Below, piece by piece: positions 30,637 to 39,853 of a DNA stretch of 64,000 nucleotides; position 1 is the stretch's first letter; every line of letters starts with the position of its first letter. Source of the stretch: Escherichia phage vB_EcoM_3HA11; the sequence record MN342150. One strand, written 5' to 3'. Below the pieces are notes generated by a model that saw only the letters and a program-made list of their open reading frames with translations, did not search any database and had not been told where the DNA came from. Position numbers and translations under genes: made by a program.

Positions 30637-33378
30637 TTATGCCCCGAGAATACGTTTTGAAATAGCCTTCACAAATCTAGTGGCATCTTCAATCGCATTA
30701 TGCGCCGTTGGCTGATATTTTGACATCATGAATTTCACCAAACGATGACATTCAACTCGGTATCGGTTTTTGGCCTTTTGCTTTTGAGATATAGTGCTAG
30801 TGACCTTTATCTCATCAAATCCTTCAGTAGTTAATTTTTCATTCAATAAATCAACAACTTGAGTTAACTGGTTACAGGCGCGGAAAAATCTCGTAGTTGA
30901 GAAAGGCATTTCTATACGATAATGTAATTCCTCAACAGCCTTGCGGAAATAACCGTACCCCGATCCAGACGGGTTTCGTTTGGCCAGCATACGAACAACC
31001 TTCCATTCTTCTTCAGTGATTTGTTGTTTCGCATAACCGATGATTGCTTTTGCCCTGTGTTGATGATGAGCATAGCCATCCGTAACTTCTCCATGGGAAT
31101 CAATCAACAGCTTGGCACCATAATCAATGCGATGAGACATGATGTTTATGCCCTTGCGAAGTTTCAGGAGTTTCTTAGATTCAAGCGCCTGAAATTCATC
31201 TTTATAATGCTCAAGCAACATATCAAACACTGCGTCAATGGGGATGAATACTTCTGGGAATTTCTTCATCATCGGAACAGATTTACGACGCGCAAGAACG
31301 ATTGTTGGATGCGCTCCCAGCAAATCAAACATGTTTTCGTTTCCATTCTCGCCGAACTTCGTTCTTTCCATCGCTTCACGCAAATGTCCAGCCGTGGATT
31401 GTCGTAAGGTATTACCATGAATTTTATGGATACCTTCTCGGCCAGATACTTCGATGTATACGATCTTTTTGCCTGAATCAATAATATCTGAAACGGTTTT
31501 TCCATCCAATTCATAAACGCTGTCGAAGTTAAATGAATTGTAATGGAAACTAAACATCCCAGGATCTTTTTCAACGGTCGGGCGAACATATTCCATTTCA
31601 TGCATGAAATAAACTTCATCCGGATTGAATAAATCGCCAAAAACCTCGATCAGTTTATCGGCAAAGACCAGGTAGTCCGGTGTTGTTTCTTGTACACCGA
31701 TCCATGATTCAAAATAAGACTTCAATTCCTCATGGTTGGTGAATGATTCTTTATGTGCCGCCAGCTGATTCCGATTACTGAAATAATTTTCATTCGGTTT
31801 GACGACGATAACGACATTGAAGTTATTGCGTGCTGTTTGTATCTTCAGGTTTCGAGCACGATTCGAGTTATCAATAATAACAGCAATTTTTGATTTAGAT
31901 TTCAACCAATTTCCGACAGAGTTCACATAAATGCTGTCGTGTACTACACCGTCGTCGTGTACTTCAATTTCGTAAGGACTACCAATAGACCGGAAAGGTG
32001 CATCCACAGAGTAATCGCGCACGACGTCCGGCGCTCCGATATAACGGAACGTGCCTTTGTAGAAACGGTTATCTGCAGGAAATTCTCGCTCCACTAATTT
32101 ACGGAAACCACTACCGAACATATCGGTCAATTGAGCCTTCTTCATATAAAGCATAAGAGGACCCATAGATTCGGCCTGGCGAAGTTCATACATCTTCGCC
32201 TGCATAATATTGTCAGCCACATATTTGAACACTCGGTTCAGGCTTTCACGGGTGAACTCGTCATATGACAAGTCTTCACGTGATGGAGGAACATTCAATT
32301 CTCCAAGTTCAAAGAATGTATAGGAACTCGGGAATTTCTCCAGCACCGAACGTATTTCAGAATCCAATTGCTCAAGATCTATCGGATAAGAAACCCCGCC
32401 CATAACGGCATAGTGGGTATTATCAGAATCAGACTTCGGCTGAATATACGTGTTGCCCACACGGTTTTCAAAATTGATGTCCTGCCAGCGGAAAGAATAA
32501 CTGGCATTTTCAACCTTCGGGCGCATTGATGGGCGCATAACTCGACCCAGACGGACCAGTTCTTGTTCAAATGCGGTAAATCGCTGATTCTTTACAGGCA
32601 CTTTAACAGTCAGACCATTGAACTCATCAGTGTCTTCTGGTTTCGGATCACGGGTATCCAAATCCTTGGTGATCAGGTCCACAGTAGGAATCCTGTCCGC
32701 ATTCAGATACATAAGGAAGCGATACAGTTTACCTTCATAACGACTTTCTACAGTAAATGAGTCCGACACTGCAAATGGGGATTTAGAACCCAGACCAAAC
32801 GCGCCGATCTGCCCGTCGTCGTCCTCTTTGGTGCTATGGAAGAGTGTGGTGTACAAACCAGGTCCACGGATGATCTCGCCATCCTCAGCGCGGAATACCA
32901 ACACCCCATTGTAATAACCAGGCGTCCCAATAACAGCAGTGCTGTCAGGGATCTCATCTTCCTTTACAACAATGTTGCCTTCGACAAGCACTTCATCTTC
33001 CCGCGCTGCGATAGGTTCCCCGATAATCATTTCTAACGGAAGGCCAATCCCATAATCCTTGATTTCCAACCATGGTTCCATAACATCAGGTAAATGGACC
33101 ACAACGGGCGTCCCTTTGGGAGCAAGATGCTTGCTGTATCTTTGGGGCATAGGGGTAAGAGGGGCATAATGGGACGGCAACCAACGCTGTTGGCGATCGC
33201 GCATATTATGCGAGTCTATACCGTTACATAACGTCTCACGCAAAGATGCGGCCTCTTTATATTTGTAGAGACTTGAGAACAATGTTTCAAATAATTTATC
33301 CGTCATCTTGACATTAAATGTCTGTCCGACGATAGTGGAAGAAGAGCGCACGAAATGCTCAGACTTGCGCATTTTCAT
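30637..33378 (-). CDS. rIIA: rIIA-like protein with GHKL-type ATPase domain
   Basis: 913 aa; Bergerat-fold motifs ETLCNGIDS (ExxxNxxD), DYGIG, GAFGLGSKSPFAV; immediately upstream of rIIB. Confidence 0.7.
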   Translation of the reverse strand: MKMRKSEHFVRSSSTIVGQTFNVKMTDKLFETLFSSLYKYKEAASLRETLCNGIDSHNMRDRQQRWLPSHYAPLTPMPQRYSKHLAPKGTPVVVHLPDVMEPWLEIKDYGIGLPLEMIIGEPIAAREDEVLVEGNIVVKEDEIPDSTAVIGTPGYYNGVLVFRAEDGEIIRGPGLYTTLFHSTKEDDDGQIGAFGLGSKSPFAVSDSFTVESRYEGKLYRFLMYLNADRIPTVDLITKDLDTRDPKPEDTDEFNGLTVKVPVKNQRFTAFEQELVRLGRVMRPSMRPKVENASYSFRWQDINFENRVGNTYIQPKSDSDNTHYAVMGGVSYPIDLEQLDSEIRSVLEKFPSSYTFFELGELNVPPSREDLSYDEFTRESLNRVFKYVADNIMQAKMYELRQAESMGPLMLYMKKAQLTDMFGSGFRKLVEREFPADNRFYKGTFRYIGAPDVVRDYSVDAPFRSIGSPYEIEVHDDGVVHDSIYVNSVGNWLKSKSKIAVIIDNSNRARNLKIQTARNNFNVVIVVKPNENYFSNRNQLAAHKESFTNHEELKSYFESWIGVQETTPDYLVFADKLIEVFGDLFNPDEVYFMHEMEYVRPTVEKDPGMFSFHYNSFNFDSVYELDGKTVSDIIDSGKKIVYIEVSGREGIHKIHGNTLRQSTAGHLREAMERTKFGENGNENMFDLLGAHPTIVLARRKSVPMMKKFPEVFIPIDAVFDMLLEHYKDEFQALESKKLLKLRKGINIMSHRIDYGAKLLIDSHGEVTDGYAHHQHRAKAIIGYAKQQITEEEWKVVRMLAKRNPSGSGYGYFRKAVEELHYRIEMPFSTTRFFRACNQLTQVVDLLNEKLTTEGFDEIKVTSTISQKQKAKNRYRVECHRLVKFMMSKYQPTAHNAIEDATRFVKAISKRILGA

Positions 33379-34216: not shown

Positions 34217-34655
34217 CTGTTTCTCCTTTTGCTGCATATGCCAGTGCTTTTACAATCATCACGGCCAATCCGATTGGGTCGCACGTACCTTCGAATTCTT
34301 GTTCTAAAATCTCACGTATTTCATCAGAAGATTGTACTTCGGAGCAGTTCTTGCTCTGTCGACGTTGTTCTTGCTCAACGAGGTCTTTGAACAGAAGGTC
34401 TTTGAAAGAATACTCATCGAAGTTTTCCAGATACTGCTGGATACTTGGTTGTTTCGCATCCATCGTTCTACGCAGATTGCTGATAGTTGAACTCGCCTGT
34501 TCGCGGTGTTTGTTCATAACGGAAAAGTTCACGGGTTTCCCCCAAGCGTTCGTCACTGTGTTGGAACACACTTGTCCGAAGAGATCTTGGAAGGCGTCAT
34601 CCAGATGAATCAGCGCGGCGGCCAGTTCATCATAAGTTGGTTTTTGAGCAGTCAT
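34209..34655 (-). CDS. hypothetical protein (148 aa)
   Basis: ORF in operon. Confidence 0.4.
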   Translation of the reverse strand: MTAQKPTYDELAAALIHLDDAFQDLFGQVCSNTVTNAWGKPVNFSVMNKHREQASSTISNLRRTMDAKQPSIQQYLENFDEYSFKDLLFKDLVEQEQRRQSKNCSEVQSSDEIREILEQEFEGTCDPIGLAVMIVKALAYAAKGETDV

Positions 34656-35035
34656 TTTCGTTTATTCCTATTTTTAGATTTCTTGGCTTGACGTTTATGC
34701 TGAGCGGCTCCATACAAGCGCGGAGGCTTTTGATAACGCTGTGAGGCAATTATATCCCTGTAGTCGGCTTCGGCTTCACAGCAAGAAACATCCGTTCTTC
34801 GTAATTGTGCGACCGCTTGAGATACCAATGTTTTGCGTTCACTTTCTACCAGATCATCACAAATTATCATGCGTTCACCTGGTTCACAACGACGTTTAGG
34901 AATATCGTCTACACTGATACATTCTACTTCAACGCCTTTCAACTTTTCTTGAAGGATAATGGCCATAGTACGAGCGCCCACCCCTCCTCCAATAATTGCA
35001 ATCTTTCTTGGCTTGTCAGACATATTACATTCCAT
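34652..35035 (-). CDS. small Rossmann-like nucleotide-binding protein with basic C-terminal tail
   Basis: 127 aa; N-terminal IAIIGGGVGA dinucleotide-binding signature; C-terminal KRQAKKSKNRNKRK; promoter-like motif upstream. Confidence 0.4.
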   Translation of the reverse strand: MECNMSDKPRKIAIIGGGVGARTMAIILQEKLKGVEVECISVDDIPKRRCEPGERMIICDDLVESERKTLVSQAVAQLRRTDVSCCEAEADYRDIIASQRYQKPPRLYGAAQHKRQAKKSKNRNKRK

Positions 35036-35053
35036 AAAAAAGAGGATAGAGCA

Positions 35054-35079
35054 ATAATACCCTATCCCCCTTTATTGAA
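35054..35079 (-). promoter_or_regulatory. promoter-like motif TTCAATAA-N12-TATTAT (minus strand)
   Basis: Upstream of gene 34652..35035; part of an 18-nt block CGTTCTTCAATAAAGGGG repeated at 38021-38038. Confidence 0.35.
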
Positions 35080-35085
35080 GAACGA

Positions 35086-35529
35086 TTAGTCTTTGGATTC
35101 TACTTTATCACCGCGCAGATCCTGGACGAGTTTGCCATCCGGCGACATGATGTAGATGGTGTTAATTGTCTCAAACCAGGATAGTTCATCAACTCCTTCA
35201 GTGTATGGAGTTACCGGAACTGAAGTTTTGATATGATCACCATCGTTATTTGGGGTGCCATCAGACTTCAGCACTGGCTCCAGGAAGGCGAAACGACCAT
35301 TTGGATAAATCACCCCGCCTTTAAACATGCGGATCTTCTTGCGAGGGTTGTTGGCCTCGCCAAGGCACACGACCAGATGATGGATCATCTCCGGACGGGT
35401 AAGCAACGTGTCGTCACGGATGATACCCTGTTTAATAGCGGAGATCACCACTTCGTCCAACAGCGCCTGCTGCTGGTCCAGCGTCAGTGATTCAGTAAGT
35501 TTCAGAGCCATTATTCGTACCCCAAACAT
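35086..35529 (-). CDS. hypothetical protein (147 aa)
   Basis: ORF; no motif. Confidence 0.4.
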   Translation of the reverse strand: MFGVRIMALKLTESLTLDQQQALLDEVVISAIKQGIIRDDTLLTRPEMIHHLVVCLGEANNPRKKIRMFKGGVIYPNGRFAFLEPVLKSDGTPNNDGDHIKTSVPVTPYTEGVDELSWFETINTIYIMSPDGKLVQDLRGDKVESKD

Positions 35530-35643
35530 TTGTTTAAGAAAGTCAGGACATCGTCCATGGTCTTGACCTCAATTTCAATGCCGAGTTGTTCCGCCAACTT
35601 GTTGGTGTTCTCGACGATCTCTTTGTCTCGCGCTGACATGATG

Positions 35644-36213
35644 TCAGCCTTTGAAGTTGATCGGTTTCTGAACCCCAGCGTCAAACGCGGCCTGGGTACG
35701 GGTATCGCTCACCACCTGGCAGGTCTTGTCAAGATCGATGCGCGGGTAGCCAAACACACCAGCAATCAACGAACCAGGGAACTGAGCCAGCTTGGTTTCG
35801 TACATCGCGCAGATGTCAAGCTTCTTGGTCTGACTGATACGGAACTCATCGCGGCCTGAGCTGATGACAACCTGGATCTCTTTGTACAGACTGGAATCAA
35901 ACTGAATGTTCTGTTCCTGGATCCACTGCATCACAGCCTTGGAACCATCAGCACCATAACGCCCTTCGAACGTACCTTTGATAACTTCCTTCAGGCCGTC
36001 TTTGTACATGTCAGGAATCTGCGCCGTCTCCTGAACTTTGAGCGTGTAGTTGCTCAGGTAGTTCTCAGAGTCTTTGTTGAACTTCTTGACCTGTTGCTCA
36101 GTGCGGTTGAAGTCGTTGAAATAACTGACGAAACTACCAACACCGATTACAACAAAAGCCAGAATCGCCAAACCGATGATCCAACCAATTGAAATACCTT
36201 TACGCTGCGACAT
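35644..36213 (-). CDS. LemA-family membrane protein
   Basis: 189 aa; N-terminal TM helix; C-terminal KLAQFPGSLIAGVFGYP matches the conserved LemA FP..IIAG.FGF segment. Confidence 0.55.
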   Translation of the reverse strand: MSQRKGISIGWIIGLAILAFVVIGVGSFVSYFNDFNRTEQQVKKFNKDSENYLSNYTLKVQETAQIPDMYKDGLKEVIKGTFEGRYGADGSKAVMQWIQEQNIQFDSSLYKEIQVVISSGRDEFRISQTKKLDICAMYETKLAQFPGSLIAGVFGYPRIDLDKTCQVVSDTRTQAAFDAGVQKPINFKG

Positions 36214-36228
36214 CTTTACTTCCTCTTG

Positions 36229-37338
36229 TTAAAACAAACGTTTGTAAGTGCGACCATTGTAGTGCATATGGCCTAATATGAAAATTGCGGTAAACGGAAC
36301 ACAACCTAATAAAACGACGATAATCACTTCCCATGTCTTGAGGTCACGCCATTTCAGATACTCCATTTCCTTCATTTCAACGCGGTTATAGCCTTTGCTT
36401 ATATTGACTGCAACTTCTTGGAATACTGATATCCCCATGGGTTTGCCAGTCAATGAAAGACCGTTTCGGGAATGAAGTTCCATGTTATTCATCCCATCAG
36501 CAAATGACGTGGATTTACCCCAATTGATTTTCATATCCTTCGATATGTCAGTAACCACAATGACATCGTTCTTTTTACCACCGGGCCATGCATATAGCAG
36601 CCCCTGAAAATATTCCACAGGCTGGCCAGAAGTCACTACCCACACGATATTGACCTGACGTGATGCCCCCAATGTTTTCAAAGTGTTGTTCAGATAATCA
36701 TTCCAATAATCAACGGGAATATCCATCCCCGACATATTCAGAACACGAGTCACCCGATAATAATCATACACCCTTGGATATGACGGGATATGGTCTTTGA
36801 ACTTCTCAGCGAATTGTTGGTCAGATTTGGAGAATAAAGAATCCTTGTTCCCCAGAACATAGTTCATATATGCATGTTCACGCGCTGCAGGTTCTCCGAT
36901 TTTAACTTGTGCCCAACGTGGAGGCTCTGTAGTACCCTGACGATCAATACGGTCAATGCTCAGATCACCGACGGTTGTTAATACGTCCCAATCAACGTCA
37001 TAAGAGTGCTCATAGCACGTGCTGCAATGACGCGTTTGTGTACAAGATCGGTTATTTCCTGAACCAGAGCAAGAAGTTGTGTAATAGCACATACATTCAT
37101 AAGAATGGCTACAACCCACCTTATTTCGTTGCTTGTCAGTAACGTACCCATTCAAAATTTCAACATCTCCCGAACTACCCAGGGAAAATGCAGCGTATGC
37201 TCCCGCCTGGATAAGACAGGATAATACAACCACTATCGCAGTAGCAATTAGCGTTTCTTTTGGTTCATGGGTTTTGCGATGGTAAACCACGAACAATATG
37301 GCTAAAATAATAGGGACCACAAACAGAAGGTAAATCAT
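36229..37338 (-). CDS. polytopic membrane protein with Cys-rich extracytoplasmic domain
   Basis: 369 aa; two N-terminal and one C-terminal hydrophobic helices; CSHSYECMCYY...CSGSG...CTQTRHCSTC cysteine cluster; immediately upstream of the LemA-like gene. Confidence 0.45.
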   Translation of the reverse strand: MIYLLFVVPIILAILFVVYHRKTHEPKETLIATAIVVVLSCLIQAGAYAAFSLGSSGDVEILNGYVTDKQRNKVGCSHSYECMCYYTTSCSGSGNNRSCTQTRHCSTCYEHSYDVDWDVLTTVGDLSIDRIDRQGTTEPPRWAQVKIGEPAAREHAYMNYVLGNKDSLFSKSDQQFAEKFKDHIPSYPRVYDYYRVTRVLNMSGMDIPVDYWNDYLNNTLKTLGASRQVNIVWVVTSGQPVEYFQGLLYAWPGGKKNDVIVVTDISKDMKINWGKSTSFADGMNNMELHSRNGLSLTGKPMGISVFQEVAVNISKGYNRVEMKEMEYLKWRDLKTWEVIIVVLLGCVPFTAIFILGHMHYNGRTYKRLF

Positions 37339-37721
37339 AACACACCATCCACGAGTTGTTCCTTCGTCATACCAAGAAGTTGATTTTTATGATCTGATTC
37401 AGCTCCATTTTTCAACAACAGATCCCAACGTTCTTCATGATACTGTGGAGCCATCGCATCGTCAAAAGAAACATGGTGGCGATGCATAATTGTTGCAACG
37501 GTATGAAGAACGATTGCTGTCGCTCTTTTTAAAGCACGTGTATCAGTGATATGGTCTTCATATTCGATACCCATCAAATCGAGTTCTTTCCGAATATATG
37601 CAATAGACAAATCACCTTCAGAATGCAATTTAACAATAGTCGCTTTCTTAGGATGTAACACGCCGTCTGTTTCTTTCATGAACAGATCGTACAAATATTG
37701 TTTGTATTCGGGGCGCATCAT
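37335..37721 (-). CDS. hypothetical protein (128 aa)
   Basis: 4-nt overlap with neighbours. Confidence 0.4.
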   Translation of the reverse strand: MMRPEYKQYLYDLFMKETDGVLHPKKATIVKLHSEGDLSIAYIRKELDLMGIEYEDHITDTRALKRATAIVLHTVATIMHRHHVSFDDAMAPQYHEERWDLLLKNGAESDHKNQLLGMTKEQLVDGVL

Positions 37722-37972
37722 CTCGTAATCCCTCCGGCACAGATAATATTCAGTTCACCGCGACGGAAACCGCCTTGCCCCTCGCCATGTAGTAGACCAA
37801 ACGCACTCTTGCCGGAATTTTTGTTGCCGTTCAGTATATTCCAAAGAGCATCAGCATCGCCTAACTCAGTCATCTGGTATTTTGTTGGATTTTTATGATC
37901 TTCTTCCAGAATCACCGATACCATAGATTCAATATCGAGGGAGTCCATATCTTCAATTCGTTGCATTGCCAT
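37718..37972 (-). CDS. hypothetical protein (84 aa)
   Basis: Preceded by TTCAATAA-N12-TATTAT promoter-like motif. Confidence 0.35.
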   Translation of the reverse strand: MAMQRIEDMDSLDIESMVSVILEEDHKNPTKYQMTELGDADALWNILNGNKNSGKSAFGLLHGEGQGGFRRGELNIICAGGITR

Positions 37973-38007
37973 GATGTATTTCCTTGTAAAAGAAAGGGGA
38001 ACGGGCT

Positions 38008-38033
38008 AATAATAACCCATTCCCCTTTATTGA
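38008..38033 (-). promoter_or_regulatory. promoter-like motif TTCAATAA-N12-TATTAT (minus strand)
   Basis: Upstream of gene 37718..37972; same 18-nt block as at 35067-35084. Confidence 0.35.
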
Positions 38034-38053
38034 AGAACGCAATCGCAGTCAGA

Positions 38054-38221
38054 TTACTTTTTCTTCAGCTCTTCCAGCTTGGCTTCAATTTGGTCCAGAA
38101 TCTCTTTACCTTTCTGGACGATGGCTTCACCGTCTTGCGCGTGTTTACGAAAAACCAGAGCGCCAGCAATGAAACCAACAACCACGCCTGGGAGCGCATA
38201 CACCAACAGATCTTGTAACAT
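38054..38221 (-). CDS. small membrane protein (about 55 aa; below ORF-track cutoff)
   Basis: ATG with GTGAGGA RBS; sequence MLQDLLVYALPGVVVGFIAGALVF then charged tail; coordinates hand-counted. Confidence 0.35.
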   Translation of the reverse strand: MLQDLLVYALPGVVVGFIAGALVFRKHAQDGEAIVQKGKEILDQIEAKLEELKKK

Positions 38222-38259
38222 GATTTATATCCTCACTTTTATAAGCAAGGATATTTATA

Positions 38260-39495
38260 TCATCGTTTCAACAAAGACATGAGGTTTACACTGGTCGACT
38301 TCGGATTGTCCTCTATCTTCCGGACGGGCATTTTCAGATTAGTGTAAACCTCAGATGGTTCCCAACGCGTACCCTGCTGCAGGTGCCATATATGTAGAGG
38401 AACACCCGTCTCAAAGAACACAGACATCTTCCACTTCTGGACGCCAGGAACGTGCCCTGCAGGAGCTTTTTCGCATAACAGGGTATCTGGTAGCCAGAGG
38501 GAACGGGCTTCCCATAATGCCTTACAGGAGTACTCAGGCCAGATGCGTTCCATGTAGTCGATCTCATCCCAAGTACGCTCGGCATCCCACCCGATGTAAC
38601 GAGTGTTTTTCAGACGGAAGAATTTCTTAAGCCAACAAGCACCGGAAGTCTCAAAGTTCAAACGATTGATGAACGTGATGTGACCAAACTCGGCGACACA
38701 ATCTTTGAATGCCTGTTCAAGATCAGCCTCAAGGATGTCGCATTCTTCATCGGTGATAGGACAGCCGTTGATCTTTTTCTTTCCGTGCTTGGTCACCCAG
38801 TCGTCACGGTTTGACAAGAATGCCGCGCCGTTACGGTTGGACTCACTACCATCACGGTCACGCAACATGAACCCAGGGACGTCGATCTGATACATGTTGC
38901 CGAATACCATGTTCAGGGCTTCCAGGAAGTTCCAGGCGCTCAGGCGACCGAAGTATTTCCACCCCATAGCCGTGTCCCATAGCTTAACGAATTGATCACT
39001 TTGCAGTTTAGTCTCCAACAACGGACGGAAAGCATCCATCTGAGTACGACCAGCCAGCCAATCAATGTAGGACTGAACACACGGGATCATCTTCGATTTG
39101 CGATAGCGGCAATCAGTATCGAATCGCATACGCTCGAAGTTCAGGTTATACCAATCACAGAATCGCTTGAACTCTTGTGGTGACTGAGGCGGTACAGGAA
39201 ACTCACTATAAATCGTCCATGGGCCAACCCCATTATAACAACAGCCCCAAAGGAACGCCATCCAGATCTTGCGCTCGATCTTCTCAAGCTGCGTAATGCC
39301 TTCAGTGACTTCAATCGCATAATCCATCAGACGAACTTGTTGGTTGTGTTCTTCCGTATACGACAGCGCCTCCACCCATGCTTTGAGCAGATACATCCGA
39401 TTCTCTGGCTTACGATAATCGATTGACAAATCAATTGGGTACTTCCATTCAGCCGGAGGCGTATAACCTGTCGGCATTTTAGATAGATGCGTCAT
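38260..39495 (-). CDS. hypothetical protein (411 aa); candidate DNA-modification enzyme by context
   Basis: Large Trp/Cys-rich ORF with no motif I can name; upstream in the same operon as the P-loop kinase. Confidence 0.4.
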   Translation of the reverse strand: MTHLSKMPTGYTPPAEWKYPIDLSIDYRKPENRMYLLKAWVEALSYTEEHNQQVRLMDYAIEVTEGITQLEKIERKIWMAFLWGCCYNGVGPWTIYSEFPVPPQSPQEFKRFCDWYNLNFERMRFDTDCRYRKSKMIPCVQSYIDWLAGRTQMDAFRPLLETKLQSDQFVKLWDTAMGWKYFGRLSAWNFLEALNMVFGNMYQIDVPGFMLRDRDGSESNRNGAAFLSNRDDWVTKHGKKKINGCPITDEECDILEADLEQAFKDCVAEFGHITFINRLNFETSGACWLKKFFRLKNTRYIGWDAERTWDEIDYMERIWPEYSCKALWEARSLWLPDTLLCEKAPAGHVPGVQKWKMSVFFETGVPLHIWHLQQGTRWEPSEVYTNLKMPVRKIEDNPKSTSVNLMSLLKR

Positions 39496-39853
39496 CCTTC
39501 ACCTCGGCTTCGAGTTGGATATCTTCAGGGTTTAAAACGGGCTGGCCCAAAGACCAAATTGGAAGGAACCGACGGTCATTGGATACTACCCAGATTTGCT
39601 TGGCGGTTTTCGTTTTTTCAGAAATATAATGCTGGGCATTAACCTGAGTCCGTGCCAGCCCAATTTGCCGCCATGCACCGAAATCTTTAGAAGATGGATT
39701 GGTGTTCAGCTGAAATTGTGGGACGATTTTATTCTGTTCCGGATAGTAACGGACAGCGTTAATCATCTTCGCATCACCACGGTAATCAATAGCAACAGCG
39801 ACAACGTTGCGTGGAATGAGGATTTTCATTTTAATTCCTTTTGAAACTTTCAA
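39479..39853 (-). CDS. hypothetical protein (124 aa)
   Basis: ORF in operon. Confidence 0.35.
   Translation of the reverse strand: MKVSKGIKMKILIPRNVVAVAIDYRGDAKMINAVRYYPEQNKIVPQFQLNTNPSSKDFGAWRQIGLARTQVNAQHYISEKTKTAKQIWVVSNDRRFLPIWSLGQPVLNPEDIQLEAEVKDDASI

What the first reader, a model, noticed from the sequence alone, without database searches (positions are those of the whole stretch)
35644..37338. LemA-family protein paired with a Cys-rich polytopic membrane protein
Gene 35644..36213 has the LemA architecture (N-terminal TM helix and conserved C-terminal FP..IAG.FG segment). It is translationally adjacent to a 369-aa protein with two N-terminal and one C-terminal TM helices and a cysteine-dense central domain. 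LemA genes in bacteria are typically found in two-gene membrane modules of unknown function; an intact module inside a virulent phage early region is unexpected and could be involved in envelope remodelling, superinfection exclusion or lysis timing.
Basis: partly seen in the sequence, partly recalled or inferred. Interest (0 to 1): 0.6.

Follow-up and report, generated by a model that had tools for sequence, protein, structure and literature searches.

The report
Phage TPM–LemA periplasmic membrane gene pair
Two adjacent genes of this Salmonella ViI-like phage encode a very divergent, phage-specific version of the bacterial LemA + TPM-domain membrane pair, which is kept as a fixed two-gene unit in many unrelated large lytic phages and whose function is unknown in both phages and bacteria.

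Summary
On the minus strand, a 369-aa ORF (36229..37338) is followed after 15 nt by a 189-aa ORF (35644..36213). The window is a Kuttervirus (ViI-like Ackermannviridae).

- **189-aa protein:** a remote LemA homologue. Pfam does not detect it directly. Profile-profile comparison with canonical LemA gives 95.7% probability, and HMM hits are reciprocal.
- **Bacterial counterpart:** in the two bacterial lineages checked, LemA genes are followed by a TPM gene, so this is a divergent phage form of that module with the gene order reversed.
- **Conservation:** the pair is invariant in 79 of 80 viral loci and 16 of 17 genome loci. It occurs in about 1% of phage records: Ackermannviridae, Aeromonas T4-likes, T5-like vibriophages, ICP1, several jumbo phages and PhiW-14. 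No third gene is conserved with it.
- **Location and timing:** covarying cysteines and charge bias place both soluble domains in the periplasm. In Aeromonas phages the pair has its own sigma70-like promoter and terminator.

Function is unknown. My best guess (about 0.35) is maintenance of the inner membrane and envelope during infection. The "virion structural protein" label is unsupported.

The parts
36229..37338 (-). Gene for the 369-aa TPM-domain, Cys-rich, 3-TM membrane protein (upstream gene of the pair)
37177..37335 (-). Two N-terminal transmembrane helices (residues 2-20 and 26-54) joined by a short basic loop (HRKTHEPKE)
   Evidence: AF2 helices H2-20 and H26-54. Sequence. Net loop charge is positive on average across the family.
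36865..37170 (-). Beta-rich Cys/His domain (residues 57-158) carrying C76, H78, C82, C84, C90, C99, C105, C108, H111 and the motifs HSYxC and TCYEHSYDVDWDV. Predicted periplasmic. No known fold match.
   Evidence: AF2 strands E57-74, E80-91, E98-108, E114-121 and E150-158. Residue conservation and Cys covariation. No Pfam or PDB sequence match.
36379..36756 (-). TPM domain (about residues 195-320, beta-alpha-beta-alpha-beta-beta-alpha-alpha) with invariant D192, N257 and D258 and the block QVNIVxV...Y..AL...W.GGKKNDV
36259..36336 (-). C-terminal transmembrane helix (residues 335-360), followed by a short basic tail (GRTYKRLF)
   Evidence: AF2 H335-360. Mean net charge of the tail across the family is +1.8. 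The family tail ends in basic and aromatic residues, as in bacterial LemA-linked TPM proteins (...GRGW).
36214..36228 (-). 15-nt intergenic spacer with Shine-Dalgarno GAGGAAG (36219..36225) for the LemA-like gene
   Evidence: Sequence read.
35644..36213 (-). Gene for the 189-aa divergent LemA-like protein (downstream gene of the pair). Type II membrane protein with a helical periplasmic domain.
   Evidence: ORF. phrog_1383 at 1.2e-86. hhalign versus canonical LemA 95.7%, E 8.8e-9. The best PDB profile hit is 2etd LemA at E 0.01. Reciprocal HMM hits. AF2 mean pLDDT 84.
36121..36189 (-). N-terminal transmembrane helix of the LemA-like protein (about residues 9-31), preceded by the basic N-terminus MSQRKG
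   Evidence: AF2 helix starting at residue 9. Mean N-terminal net charge across the family is +1.5.
35908..35964 (-). Phage-specific, nearly invariant block GRYGADGSKAVMQWIQEQN (residues 84-102) that has no counterpart in canonical LemA
   Evidence: Invariant R85, G87, Q96 and E100 in alignment A1. This region is poorly matched in the hhalign alignment to LemA.
35749..35781 (-). LemA signature segment FPGSLIAGVFG (residues 145-155)
   Evidence: Aligned to FPGVIFAKMFGF of Thermotoga LemA (2etd).
37437..37465 (-). Weak candidate sigma70-like promoter (TTGACG-17-TATCAT, 10/12) inside the preceding 128-aa ORF, about 100 nt upstream of the pair
   Evidence: Best-scoring site in the scan of 34500..39600, but the total number of sites is not above the shuffled expectation. 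Analogous, stronger sites lie upstream of the pair in phiAS5 and Ah1.

Best explanation
**Identity (confidence about 0.9).** The two genes encode a phage-specific, highly divergent version of the bacterial LemA + TPM-domain membrane module.

- The 369-aa protein spans the inner membrane three times. Its roughly 280-residue middle part lies in the periplasm and consists of a disulfide-stabilised Cys/His-rich beta domain followed by a TPM domain.
- The 189-aa LemA-like protein is anchored by one N-terminal helix, and its helical domain also lies in the periplasm.
- The two are co-transcribed, early where signals can be read, and most likely form one complex on the periplasmic face of the inner membrane (inferred).

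**Mechanism (inferred, confidence about 0.35).** The complex acts as an envelope and inner-membrane maintenance or chaperone-like factor. TPM domains elsewhere support the repair and assembly of membrane protein complexes, namely photosystem II and the mycobacterial respiratory supercomplex. They are also genomic partners of PspA. By analogy, the phage module would keep the infected cell's inner membrane and its energy-transducing complexes working through the long, high-burst infection cycle of large lytic phages.

The conserved Cys/His site of the beta domain and the TPM metal or phosphate site would provide binding or catalytic activity towards a host envelope component that is common to many proteobacteria.
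For: **Shown**
- Real genes with a 15-nt gap and a ribosome-binding site.
- LemA homology: hhalign 95.7%, E 8.8e-9, spanning the TM helix to the FP..A..FG motif. A canonical LemA HMM hits only the ORF downstream of the TPM gene among all ORFs of at least 50 aa in the viral loci, in 40 of 80 loci. The phage-family HMM hits 119 of 120 canonical LemA proteins at about 40 bits.
- Bacterial LemA is followed by an overlapping TPM_phosphatase gene in Thermotoga and Neobacillus.
- The pair is invariant, on the same strand and in the same order, in 79 of 80 IMG/VR loci (the exception is cut by a contig end). No third gene is conserved. It is also present in 16 of 17 genome-collection loci.
- Genus counts from the two tblastn searches match almost exactly.

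**Periplasmic placement**
- C135 and C165 of the LemA-like protein are present together in 22 sequences and absent together in 19.
- C84+C105 and C90+C99 of the partner are lost pairwise.
- The N-terminus of the LemA-like protein and the C-tail of the partner are basic.

**Early, autonomous expression**
- In phiAS5 and Ah1 a sigma70-like promoter (11/12 and 10/12 matches) lies about 90 nt upstream, and a strong terminator lies 3-5 nt after the LemA stop.

**Functional analogy, from the literature**
- TPM domains are proposed to be chaperone-like partners of PspA and are implicated in PSII repair and respiratory complex assembly (PMC11237479).
- lemA and a TPM gene are both induced when membrane homeostasis is disturbed in Flavobacterium (PMC13236525).
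Against: - No experiment on any phage homologue was found.
- The function of the bacterial module is itself unknown, so the analogy is weak.
- Formation of a complex by the two proteins was not tested, because no multimer prediction was available.
- Topology rests on the charge rule and Cys covariation only.
- The window protein does not reach any Pfam threshold for LemA or TPM.
- Very high sequence conservation together with a Cys/His site could equally indicate an enzyme with a specific substrate and not a chaperone.
Confidence: 0.38

Rival explanations
1. Superinfection exclusion or protection from lysis-from-without. The early-made periplasmic complex alters or shields the envelope or inner membrane so that DNA ejection or the tail lysozyme of secondary phages fails, functionally like T4 Imm/Sp.
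For: - Both domains face the periplasm, where incoming tails act.
- Early-type promoter in Aeromonas T4-like phages.
- The module is found only in virulent, large phages.
- Kuttervirus relatives show T4-like responses to high MOI (PMC3184105).
Against: - Known exclusion proteins are small, poorly conserved and specific to the phage's own entry route.
- This pair keeps 35-45% identity across phage families with different tails, receptors and hosts, which fits a generic host target better.
- No homology to Imm, Sp or other exclusion families was found in PHROG or Pfam.
Confidence: 0.2
2. Periplasmic enzyme. The TPM domain, reported elsewhere as a weak phosphatase or ATPase/ADPase, works with the Cys/His site of the beta domain to hydrolyse or modify a periplasmic or membrane substrate (organophosphate, nucleotide, lipid-linked precursor). 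The LemA-like subunit acts as scaffold or regulator. The benefit would be phosphate or nucleotide supply, or envelope modification.
For: - Near-invariant polar residues suggest an active or metal-binding site. In the beta domain these are H78, S79, Y80, C108, Y109, H111 and D114. In the TPM domain they are D192, N257 and D258.
- H78, C108 and H111 are lost together in the one outlier sequence.
- TPM domains with ATPase/ADPase or phosphatase activity are cited in PMC11237479.
- Large phages have a high phosphate demand (general knowledge).
Against: - Reported TPM enzymatic activities are weak and disputed.
- There is no match of the beta domain to any known enzyme fold.
- The strict pairing with a LemA-like protein is not explained.
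Confidence: 0.17
3. Lysis timing or lysis accessory. The pair acts as an antiholin-like sensor for lysis inhibition, or as a spanin-like or holin-associated factor.
For: - In Vi01 the 369-aa gene carries the gene name 'host lysis protein'.
- CBA120 shows lysis inhibition, and no RI or holin had been identified for it in 2011.
- In PhiW-14 the pair lies 1.1 kb downstream of the endolysin gene.
- The LemA-like protein has i-spanin-like topology, and one homologue has a lipobox.
Against: - The basis for the Vi01 label could not be found.
- There is no outer-membrane lipoprotein partner and no conserved linkage to endolysin or holin genes across 80 loci.
- Sigma70-type, early-like promoters precede the pair in Aeromonas phages instead of late promoters, and no TATAAATA lies before the pair.
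- Lysis proteins are rarely conserved at this level across phage families.
Confidence: 0.1
4. Virion component. The 189-aa protein is packaged in the particle, as the label 'virion structural protein' implies, and inserts into the host membrane at infection.
For: - The PHROG 1383 and RefSeq annotations read 'virion structural protein'.
- ViI proteomics reported 18 uncharacterised particle-associated proteins. That paper could not be read.
Against: - The LIMEstone1 virion mass spectrometry (39 proteins) does not list the orthologue ORF195.
- The Agricanvirus mass-spectrometry passages retrieved from Table 3 do not mention gp45 or gp46, and that work used crude lysates.
- The protein is always paired with a 3-TM inner-membrane protein, lies outside structural gene clusters and has early-type promoters.
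- Disulfide covariation implies folding in the periplasm.
Confidence: 0.05

Closest known systems
Bacterial LemA (Pfam PF04011; structure 2ETD, Thermotoga maritima TM0961) with its adjacent TPM_phosphatase-domain membrane protein (YgcG-like, PF04536)
   Same: - Two adjacent, co-oriented genes.
- One protein of about 190 aa with an N-terminal TM helix, a helical domain and the C-terminal FP..A..FG motif.
- One protein with a TPM domain followed by a TM helix and a short tail ending in basic and aromatic residues.
- Sequence homology is detectable at profile level for LemA and at fold level for TPM.
   Different: - Gene order is reversed: TPM then LemA in phages, LemA then TPM in the bacteria examined.
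- The phage TPM protein has two N-terminal TM helices in place of a signal peptide, and an extra roughly 100-residue Cys/His-rich beta domain that is absent from the bacterial partners examined.
- It lacks the long Gly-rich tail.
- The phage LemA-like protein carries an invariant GRYGADGSKAVMQWIQEQN block and a covarying Cys pair.
- Neither phage protein reaches Pfam thresholds.
- A profile of the phage TPM-like family finds only 2176 representatives at E<=1e-3, and the listed best 150 are all full-length, same-architecture proteins.
TPM-domain proteins TLP18.3/Psb32 (photosystem II repair), the mycobacterial respiratory supercomplex subunit 6ADQ chain J, and B. subtilis YdjH (PspA partner)
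   Same: The TPM fold is tethered to a membrane on the extracytoplasmic or lumenal side. The suggested role is assembly or maintenance of membrane complexes.
   Different: These proteins have no LemA partner and no Cys-rich domain, and they occur in cellular, not viral, contexts. Their biochemical activity is itself unresolved.
T4 Imm/Sp and RI/RIII (phage periplasmic or membrane proteins for exclusion and lysis inhibition)
   Same: Phage-encoded proteins that act at the inner membrane or periplasm of the infected cell, in T4-related phages that also carry rIIA/rIIB nearby.
   Different: There is no sequence or fold relationship. Those proteins are small and lineage-restricted, whereas this pair is large and conserved across many phage families.

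Membership tests
LemA family (PF04011) | Match to the Pfam LemA model at its gathering threshold | tested here: not met
   No LemA hit at E<=0.1 for the window protein. Only 4 of 41 family members give weak hits, best E 0.0016.
LemA family (PF04011) | Homology to canonical LemA over the whole domain, by profile-level comparison | tested here: met
   - hhalign of A1 against 32 canonical LemA proteins: 95.7% probability, E 8.8e-9, 145 columns.
- Profile search against the PDB: top hit 2etd LemA, E 0.01, colinear over 32-160 versus 10-155.
- The A1 HMM hits 119 of 120 canonical LemA proteins at about 40 bits.
- The canonical LemA HMM hits 54 of 96 phage-family proteins at E<=1e-3, and hits only the correct ORF in 40 loci.
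LemA family (PF04011) | Architecture: one N-terminal TM helix, an all-helical domain of about 150 aa, and the C-terminal FP..(I/V).A..FG(F/Y) motif | tested here: met
   The AF2 model is all-helical with a helix from residue 9. FPGSLIAGVFGY at 145-156 aligns to FPGVIFAKMFGF.
LemA family (PF04011) | Three-dimensional fold equal to the solved LemA structure (2ETD) | tested here: inconclusive
LemA family (PF04011) | Adjacent, co-oriented gene for a TPM-domain membrane protein | tested here: met
   Bacterial examples are LemA followed by TPM_phosphatase. In the window the neighbour has a TPM fold. The order is inverted.
TPM domain (PF04536, TLP18.3/Psb32/MOLO-1) | TPM alpha/beta fold | tested here: met
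TPM domain (PF04536, TLP18.3/Psb32/MOLO-1) | Match to the Pfam TPM_phosphatase model at its gathering threshold | tested here: not met
   No hit for the window protein. 15 of 58 family members hit weakly, best E 1.8e-4. hhalign to three bacterial TPM partners gives E 0.0024 and probability 12%.
TPM domain (PF04536, TLP18.3/Psb32/MOLO-1) | Extracytoplasmic location, tethered by a TM helix after the domain | tested here: inconclusive
   This is a prediction only. The C-tail is basic (+1.8 mean), the loop between TM1 and TM2 is basic, and cysteines covary pairwise. There are no experimental topology data.
TPM domain (PF04536, TLP18.3/Psb32/MOLO-1) | Divalent-metal binding and phosphatase or nucleotidase activity | not testable with these tools
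   DUF2207 is absent from the Pfam hits of the window protein, and is not among the 25 listed families (of 58 matched) for the 58 family members.
Spanin or holin lysis proteins | Partner outer-membrane lipoprotein (o-spanin), or a small holin, linked to an endolysin gene | tested here: not met
   No third conserved gene occurs in the 80 loci. PHROG gives no lysis category for either protein. Holin Pfam hits appear in only 3 of 58 members at E>=0.027, attributable to TM-helix composition.
Virion structural protein (PHROG 1383 label) | Detection in purified virions by mass spectrometry | tested here: not met
   The LIMEstone1 virion proteome table does not contain ORF195, the orthologue. The ViI proteome paper is not held, so the label remains unverified.

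The most novel reading that the evidence does not exclude
The pair is a phage-specific periplasmic machine, formed by a Cys/His metal or catalytic beta domain, a TPM domain and a LemA-like scaffold. It acts on a universal component of the proteobacterial envelope, such as the inner-membrane lipid or protein-complex repair machinery or a lipid-linked precursor. This would make it a general host-envelope takeover or maintenance system of large lytic phages, from Ackermannviridae to jumbo phages. Studying it would also reveal what the enigmatic bacterial LemA-TPM module does.
Probability: 0.25. Interest if true: 0.7.

Novelty: new variant of a known kind. Interest (0 to 1): 0.5.

Why it matters
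LemA and TPM-domain proteins are very common in bacteria, yet no clear function has been established for the pair.

This work shows that a sharply diverged version is kept as an inseparable, self-contained two-gene unit in about 1% of sequenced phages. It occurs across many unrelated lineages of large virulent phages, including well-studied models such as ICP1, ViI/CBA120, RaK2-like jumbo phages and PhiW-14. That degree of conservation implies an important and general interaction with the host envelope.

Current annotations are either uninformative ("hypothetical protein") or probably wrong ("virion structural protein", "major capsid protein", "host lysis protein").

Phage genetics offers a tractable way to obtain a phenotype for the LemA-TPM module, for example by deletion in ICP1 or a Kuttervirus. 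The Cys/His-rich beta domain is also a new domain with a probable active or metal-binding site.

Tried and rejected
- **Direct Pfam, NCBIfam and PADLOC scans of both proteins.** No meaningful hit. The only items were a weak PADLOC LeoBC match at E 2.9e-4 and sub-threshold noise.
- **phmmer of the 189-aa protein against the PDB.** Only a spurious coiled-coil hit.
- **afdb50 Foldseek.** Not available.
- **Profile of the 369-aa family against PDB sequences.** Nothing found. TPM membership therefore rests on fold comparison.
- **hhalign to only three bacterial TPM partners.** Weak, 12% probability.
- **Search for a conserved third gene.** None found. The apparent extra clusters are antisense shadow ORFs or neighbours restricted to Ackermannviridae.
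- **Tracing the "virion structural protein" label.** It is not in the LIMEstone1 mass-spectrometry table or in the Agricanvirus table passages retrieved.
- **Literature searches.** Searches for LemA+TPM, LemA+phage, TPM+phage and Kuttervirus transcriptomes found no functional study of the phage pair.
- **Late promoter.** The single TATAAATA in the window precedes a different small gene, not the pair.
- **Prophage or cellular origin.** The 17 hits in the genome collection are mostly MAG contigs. In the one isolate contig whose neighbours gave Pfam hits (Achromobacter), they include a phage-type YqaJ recombinase and RecA. The Variovorax neighbours gave no hits. There is no evidence for a cellular version of this subfamily.
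Full report
**1. What the window is**

The region around the finding is 96-99% identical to Salmonella and Escherichia phages of the genus Kuttervirus (Ackermannviridae; ViI, maane, STML-13-1, GEC_vB_GOT). All neighbouring genes lie on the minus strand:
- rIIA at 30637..33378;
- several DUF proteins;
- the amino-acid:DNA transferase (ADDT) of the thymidine hypermodification pathway at 38260..39495.

**2. The observation**

Both ORFs exist as described. A 369-aa ORF (36229..37338, minus strand) is followed by a 189-aa ORF (35644..36213, minus strand). The 15-nt spacer contains a good Shine-Dalgarno sequence. Both match large phage protein families over their full length: phrog_2087 at 1.5e-165 and phrog_1383 at 1.2e-86. 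They are therefore genuine genes.

**3. Is the 189-aa protein a LemA?**

*Direct scans are negative.*
- Pfam, NCBIfam and PADLOC scans do not find LemA.
- None of the 96 homologues retrieved carries a precomputed Pfam domain.

*Profile-level evidence is positive.*
- A profile of 41 diverse homologues (A1) finds the solved LemA structure 2ETD as its best PDB hit. The E-value is 0.01, and the match is colinear over nearly the whole domain.
- Four of the 41 members give weak Pfam LemA hits.
- I built a canonical LemA alignment from relatives of the Thermotoga protein, all carrying PF04011. Profile-profile comparison gives 95.7% probability, E 8.8e-9 and 145 aligned columns, running from the TM helix to the FP..A..FG motif.
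- The phage-family HMM hits 119 of 120 canonical LemA proteins at about 40 bits.
- The canonical LemA HMM was searched against every ORF of at least 50 aa in 80 viral loci. It hits only the ORF immediately downstream of the TPM-like gene, in 40 loci.

*Conclusion.* The protein is a remote but real LemA homologue that falls outside the current Pfam model.

**4. What is the 369-aa protein?**

It has 490 or more homologues, none with a Pfam domain. An AF2 model built on a 58-sequence alignment is confident, with mean pLDDT 90.3. Its parts are:

| Residues | Feature |
|---|---|
| 2-20 and 26-54 | Two TM helices |
| 57-158 | Beta-rich domain |
| about 195-320 | Beta-alpha-beta-alpha-beta-beta-alpha-alpha domain |
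| 335-360 | TM helix |

- Fifteen of the 58 family members also give weak Pfam TPM_phosphatase hits.
- The block QVNIVWVV...VEYFQGLLYAWPGGKKNDVIVV aligns to the core of bacterial LemA-linked TPM proteins.

The beta domain matches nothing known. Its Cys/His pattern is nearly invariant: C76, H78, C82, C84, C90, C99, C105, C108 and H111. Covariation is clean:
- C84 and C105 are lost together.
- C90 and C99 are lost together.
- H78, C108 and H111 are lost together in the single outlier sequence.

This suggests two or three disulfides plus a Cys/His site that could bind metal or be catalytic.

**5. Relation to the bacterial module**

In Thermotoga and Neobacillus the lemA gene is followed by an overlapping TPM_phosphatase gene. 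Those TPM proteins have a signal peptide, the TPM domain, a TM helix and a Gly-rich tail ending in RGW.

The phage pair has the same two components, with these differences:
- The gene order is reversed.
- Two TM helices replace the signal peptide.
- There is an added Cys/His beta domain.
- There is a phage-specific invariant block in the LemA-like protein, GRYGADGSKAVMQWIQEQN.

An exhaustive profile search finds 2176 representatives at E<=1e-3, and 793 at E<=1e-30. The listed best 150 almost all have the same length and architecture.

**6. Conservation of the pair**

- tblastn finds the TPM-like protein in 486 phage records and the LemA-like protein in 501, out of 50,697. Genus counts are almost identical and the coordinates are adjacent.
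- The carriers include Ackermannviridae, T4-like Aeromonas phages (phiAS5, Aeh1, PX29), T5-like Vibrio and Pectobacterium phages, and ICP1.
- They also include RaK2/GAP32-like and Agricanvirus jumbo phages, Acinetobacter 100-kb phages, PhiW-14, Atu_ph07 and Sinorhizobium phages. Lak megaphages carry the LemA-like protein.
- In 80 IMG/VR loci found with the TPM-like profile, 79 have the LemA-like ORF downstream on the same strand. In 74 of them it lies within 100 nt, and the one exception is truncated by the contig end.
- Clustering of all flanking ORFs finds no third conserved gene.
- In the genome collection, 16 of 17 loci show the same pair. These are mostly MAG contigs. In the one isolate contig with informative neighbours (Achromobacter), these include a phage-type YqaJ recombinase and RecA.
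- ICP1, PhiW-14 and Erwinia phage Rebecca records confirm the arrangement in annotated genomes, where the genes are labelled hypothetical, membrane or structural.

**7. Location and expression**

*Location.* The evidence places both soluble domains in the periplasm:
- The LemA-like N-terminus is basic, with mean net charge +1.5.
- The C-tail of the partner is basic, at +1.8.
- C135 and C165 of the LemA-like protein are either both present (22 sequences) or both absent (19 sequences).
- These features, together with the paired Cys losses in the partner, indicate disulfides. This agrees with the known extracytoplasmic location of TPM domains.

*Expression.*
- In phiAS5 and Ah1 the pair is a self-contained unit. 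A sigma70-like promoter (TTGACA-17-TATAGT, 11/12; TTGACT-17-TATAGT, 10/12) lies about 90 nt upstream.
- A strong intrinsic terminator lies directly after the LemA-like stop codon.
- In T4-type phages such promoters drive early genes (established knowledge).
- In the window a weaker site (10/12) sits at the equivalent place.
- The only TATAAATA late-promoter motif in the window precedes another gene.

**8. Annotations in circulation**

- "LemA" is used in a few records, namely Guerrero, ph0011 and UniRef for Klebsiella phage May.
- "Virion structural protein" (PHROG 1383 and RefSeq) could not be traced to data. The LIMEstone1 virion proteome lacks the orthologue. The Agricanvirus mass-spectrometry passages retrieved do not mention it.
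- "Host lysis protein" (Vi01_203) and "major capsid protein" (DU_PP_V) have no support.

**9. Mechanism**

*Shown:* the identity of the domains, the fixed pairing, the wide distribution, and predicted periplasmic exposure.

*Inferred:* the two proteins form a complex on the periplasmic face of the inner membrane.

*Best functional guess (about 0.35):* a maintenance or chaperone-like role for the inner membrane and its protein complexes during infection. It rests on:
- the roles proposed for TPM domains in PSII repair and respiratory supercomplex assembly, and as PspA partners (PMC11237479);
- co-induction of lemA and a TPM gene when membrane homeostasis is perturbed (PMC13236525);
- restriction of the module to large virulent phages with long, productive cycles;
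- a level of cross-family conservation that points to a generic host target.

*Rivals:*

| Rival | Confidence |
|---|---|
| Superinfection exclusion | 0.2 |
| Periplasmic enzyme using the TPM and Cys/His sites | 0.17 |
| Lysis timing | 0.1 |
| Virion component | 0.05 |

**10. Verdict**

- The partner is a TPM-domain protein.
- The module is not an oddity of this phage. It is a widespread, uncharacterised, phage-specific variant of the bacterial LemA-TPM pair.
- It is a good experimental target of moderate interest.

Noticed in passing
window 38252-38259 (-) and ORF 38054..38221 (-): The only T4-type late-promoter motif (TATAAATA) in the 64-kb window lies directly after the ADDT gene and just upstream of a 55-aa single-TM ORF. 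The LIMEstone1 record annotates a 'putative late promoter' at the same relative position. This may be a small lysis or holin-like membrane protein.
   Followed up: partly
window 38260..39495 (-): This gene encodes an amino-acid:DNA transferase (Pfam ADDT, 3e-58), the thymidine hypermodification enzyme of ViI-like phages. It is annotated as alpha-glutamyl/putrescinyl thymine pyrophosphorylase in phage Guerrero.
   Followed up: no
window 35086..35529 (-) and 34652..35035 (-): In phage Guerrero the orthologues are annotated 'rIIB lysis inhibitor' and 'cytochrome c maturation protein'. Here they match nothing in Pfam (with a PHROG of unknown function) and DUF7231, respectively. The Guerrero labels are probably over-annotation.
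   Followed up: partly
phage records OR844942.1 and MN871475.1 (hits H29/H91, H47): Records named 'Enterococcus phage Efm 3-10' and 'Pseudomonas phage Pa-sanjiao' carry Kuttervirus sequence 96-100% identical to this window. They are likely mislabelled or contaminated entries.
   Followed up: no
L030 3883-3911 and 5690-5715; L033 3887-3915 and 5634-5653: In the Aeromonas T4-like phages phiAS5 and Ah1 the pair is bracketed by a near-consensus sigma70 promoter and a strong intrinsic terminator. It is therefore an autonomous bicistronic cassette.
   Followed up: yes
protein P0059 (Vibrio phage phi 3 LemA-like), alignment A1: Its N-terminus, MKTWQLVTLLIVLTLGGC, looks like a lipoprotein signal with a lipobox, and UniRef calls it 'Lipoprotein'. 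Other family members have a plain TM helix.
   Followed up: no
window 35644..36213 (-), residues 9-112: There is a weak PADLOC match to the defence-system model LeoBC (E 2.9e-4, model positions 480-567 of 601). It may reflect only the TM helix plus coiled-coil composition, or a LemA-like segment in that defence protein.
   Followed up: no
L107 (Delftia phage PhiW-14) 1-785 and 1935-3579: In PhiW-14 the pair (genes 86 and 87) lies about 1.1 kb downstream of the endolysin gene and of a gp25 baseplate gene. This context differs completely from that in Kuttervirus.
   Followed up: no
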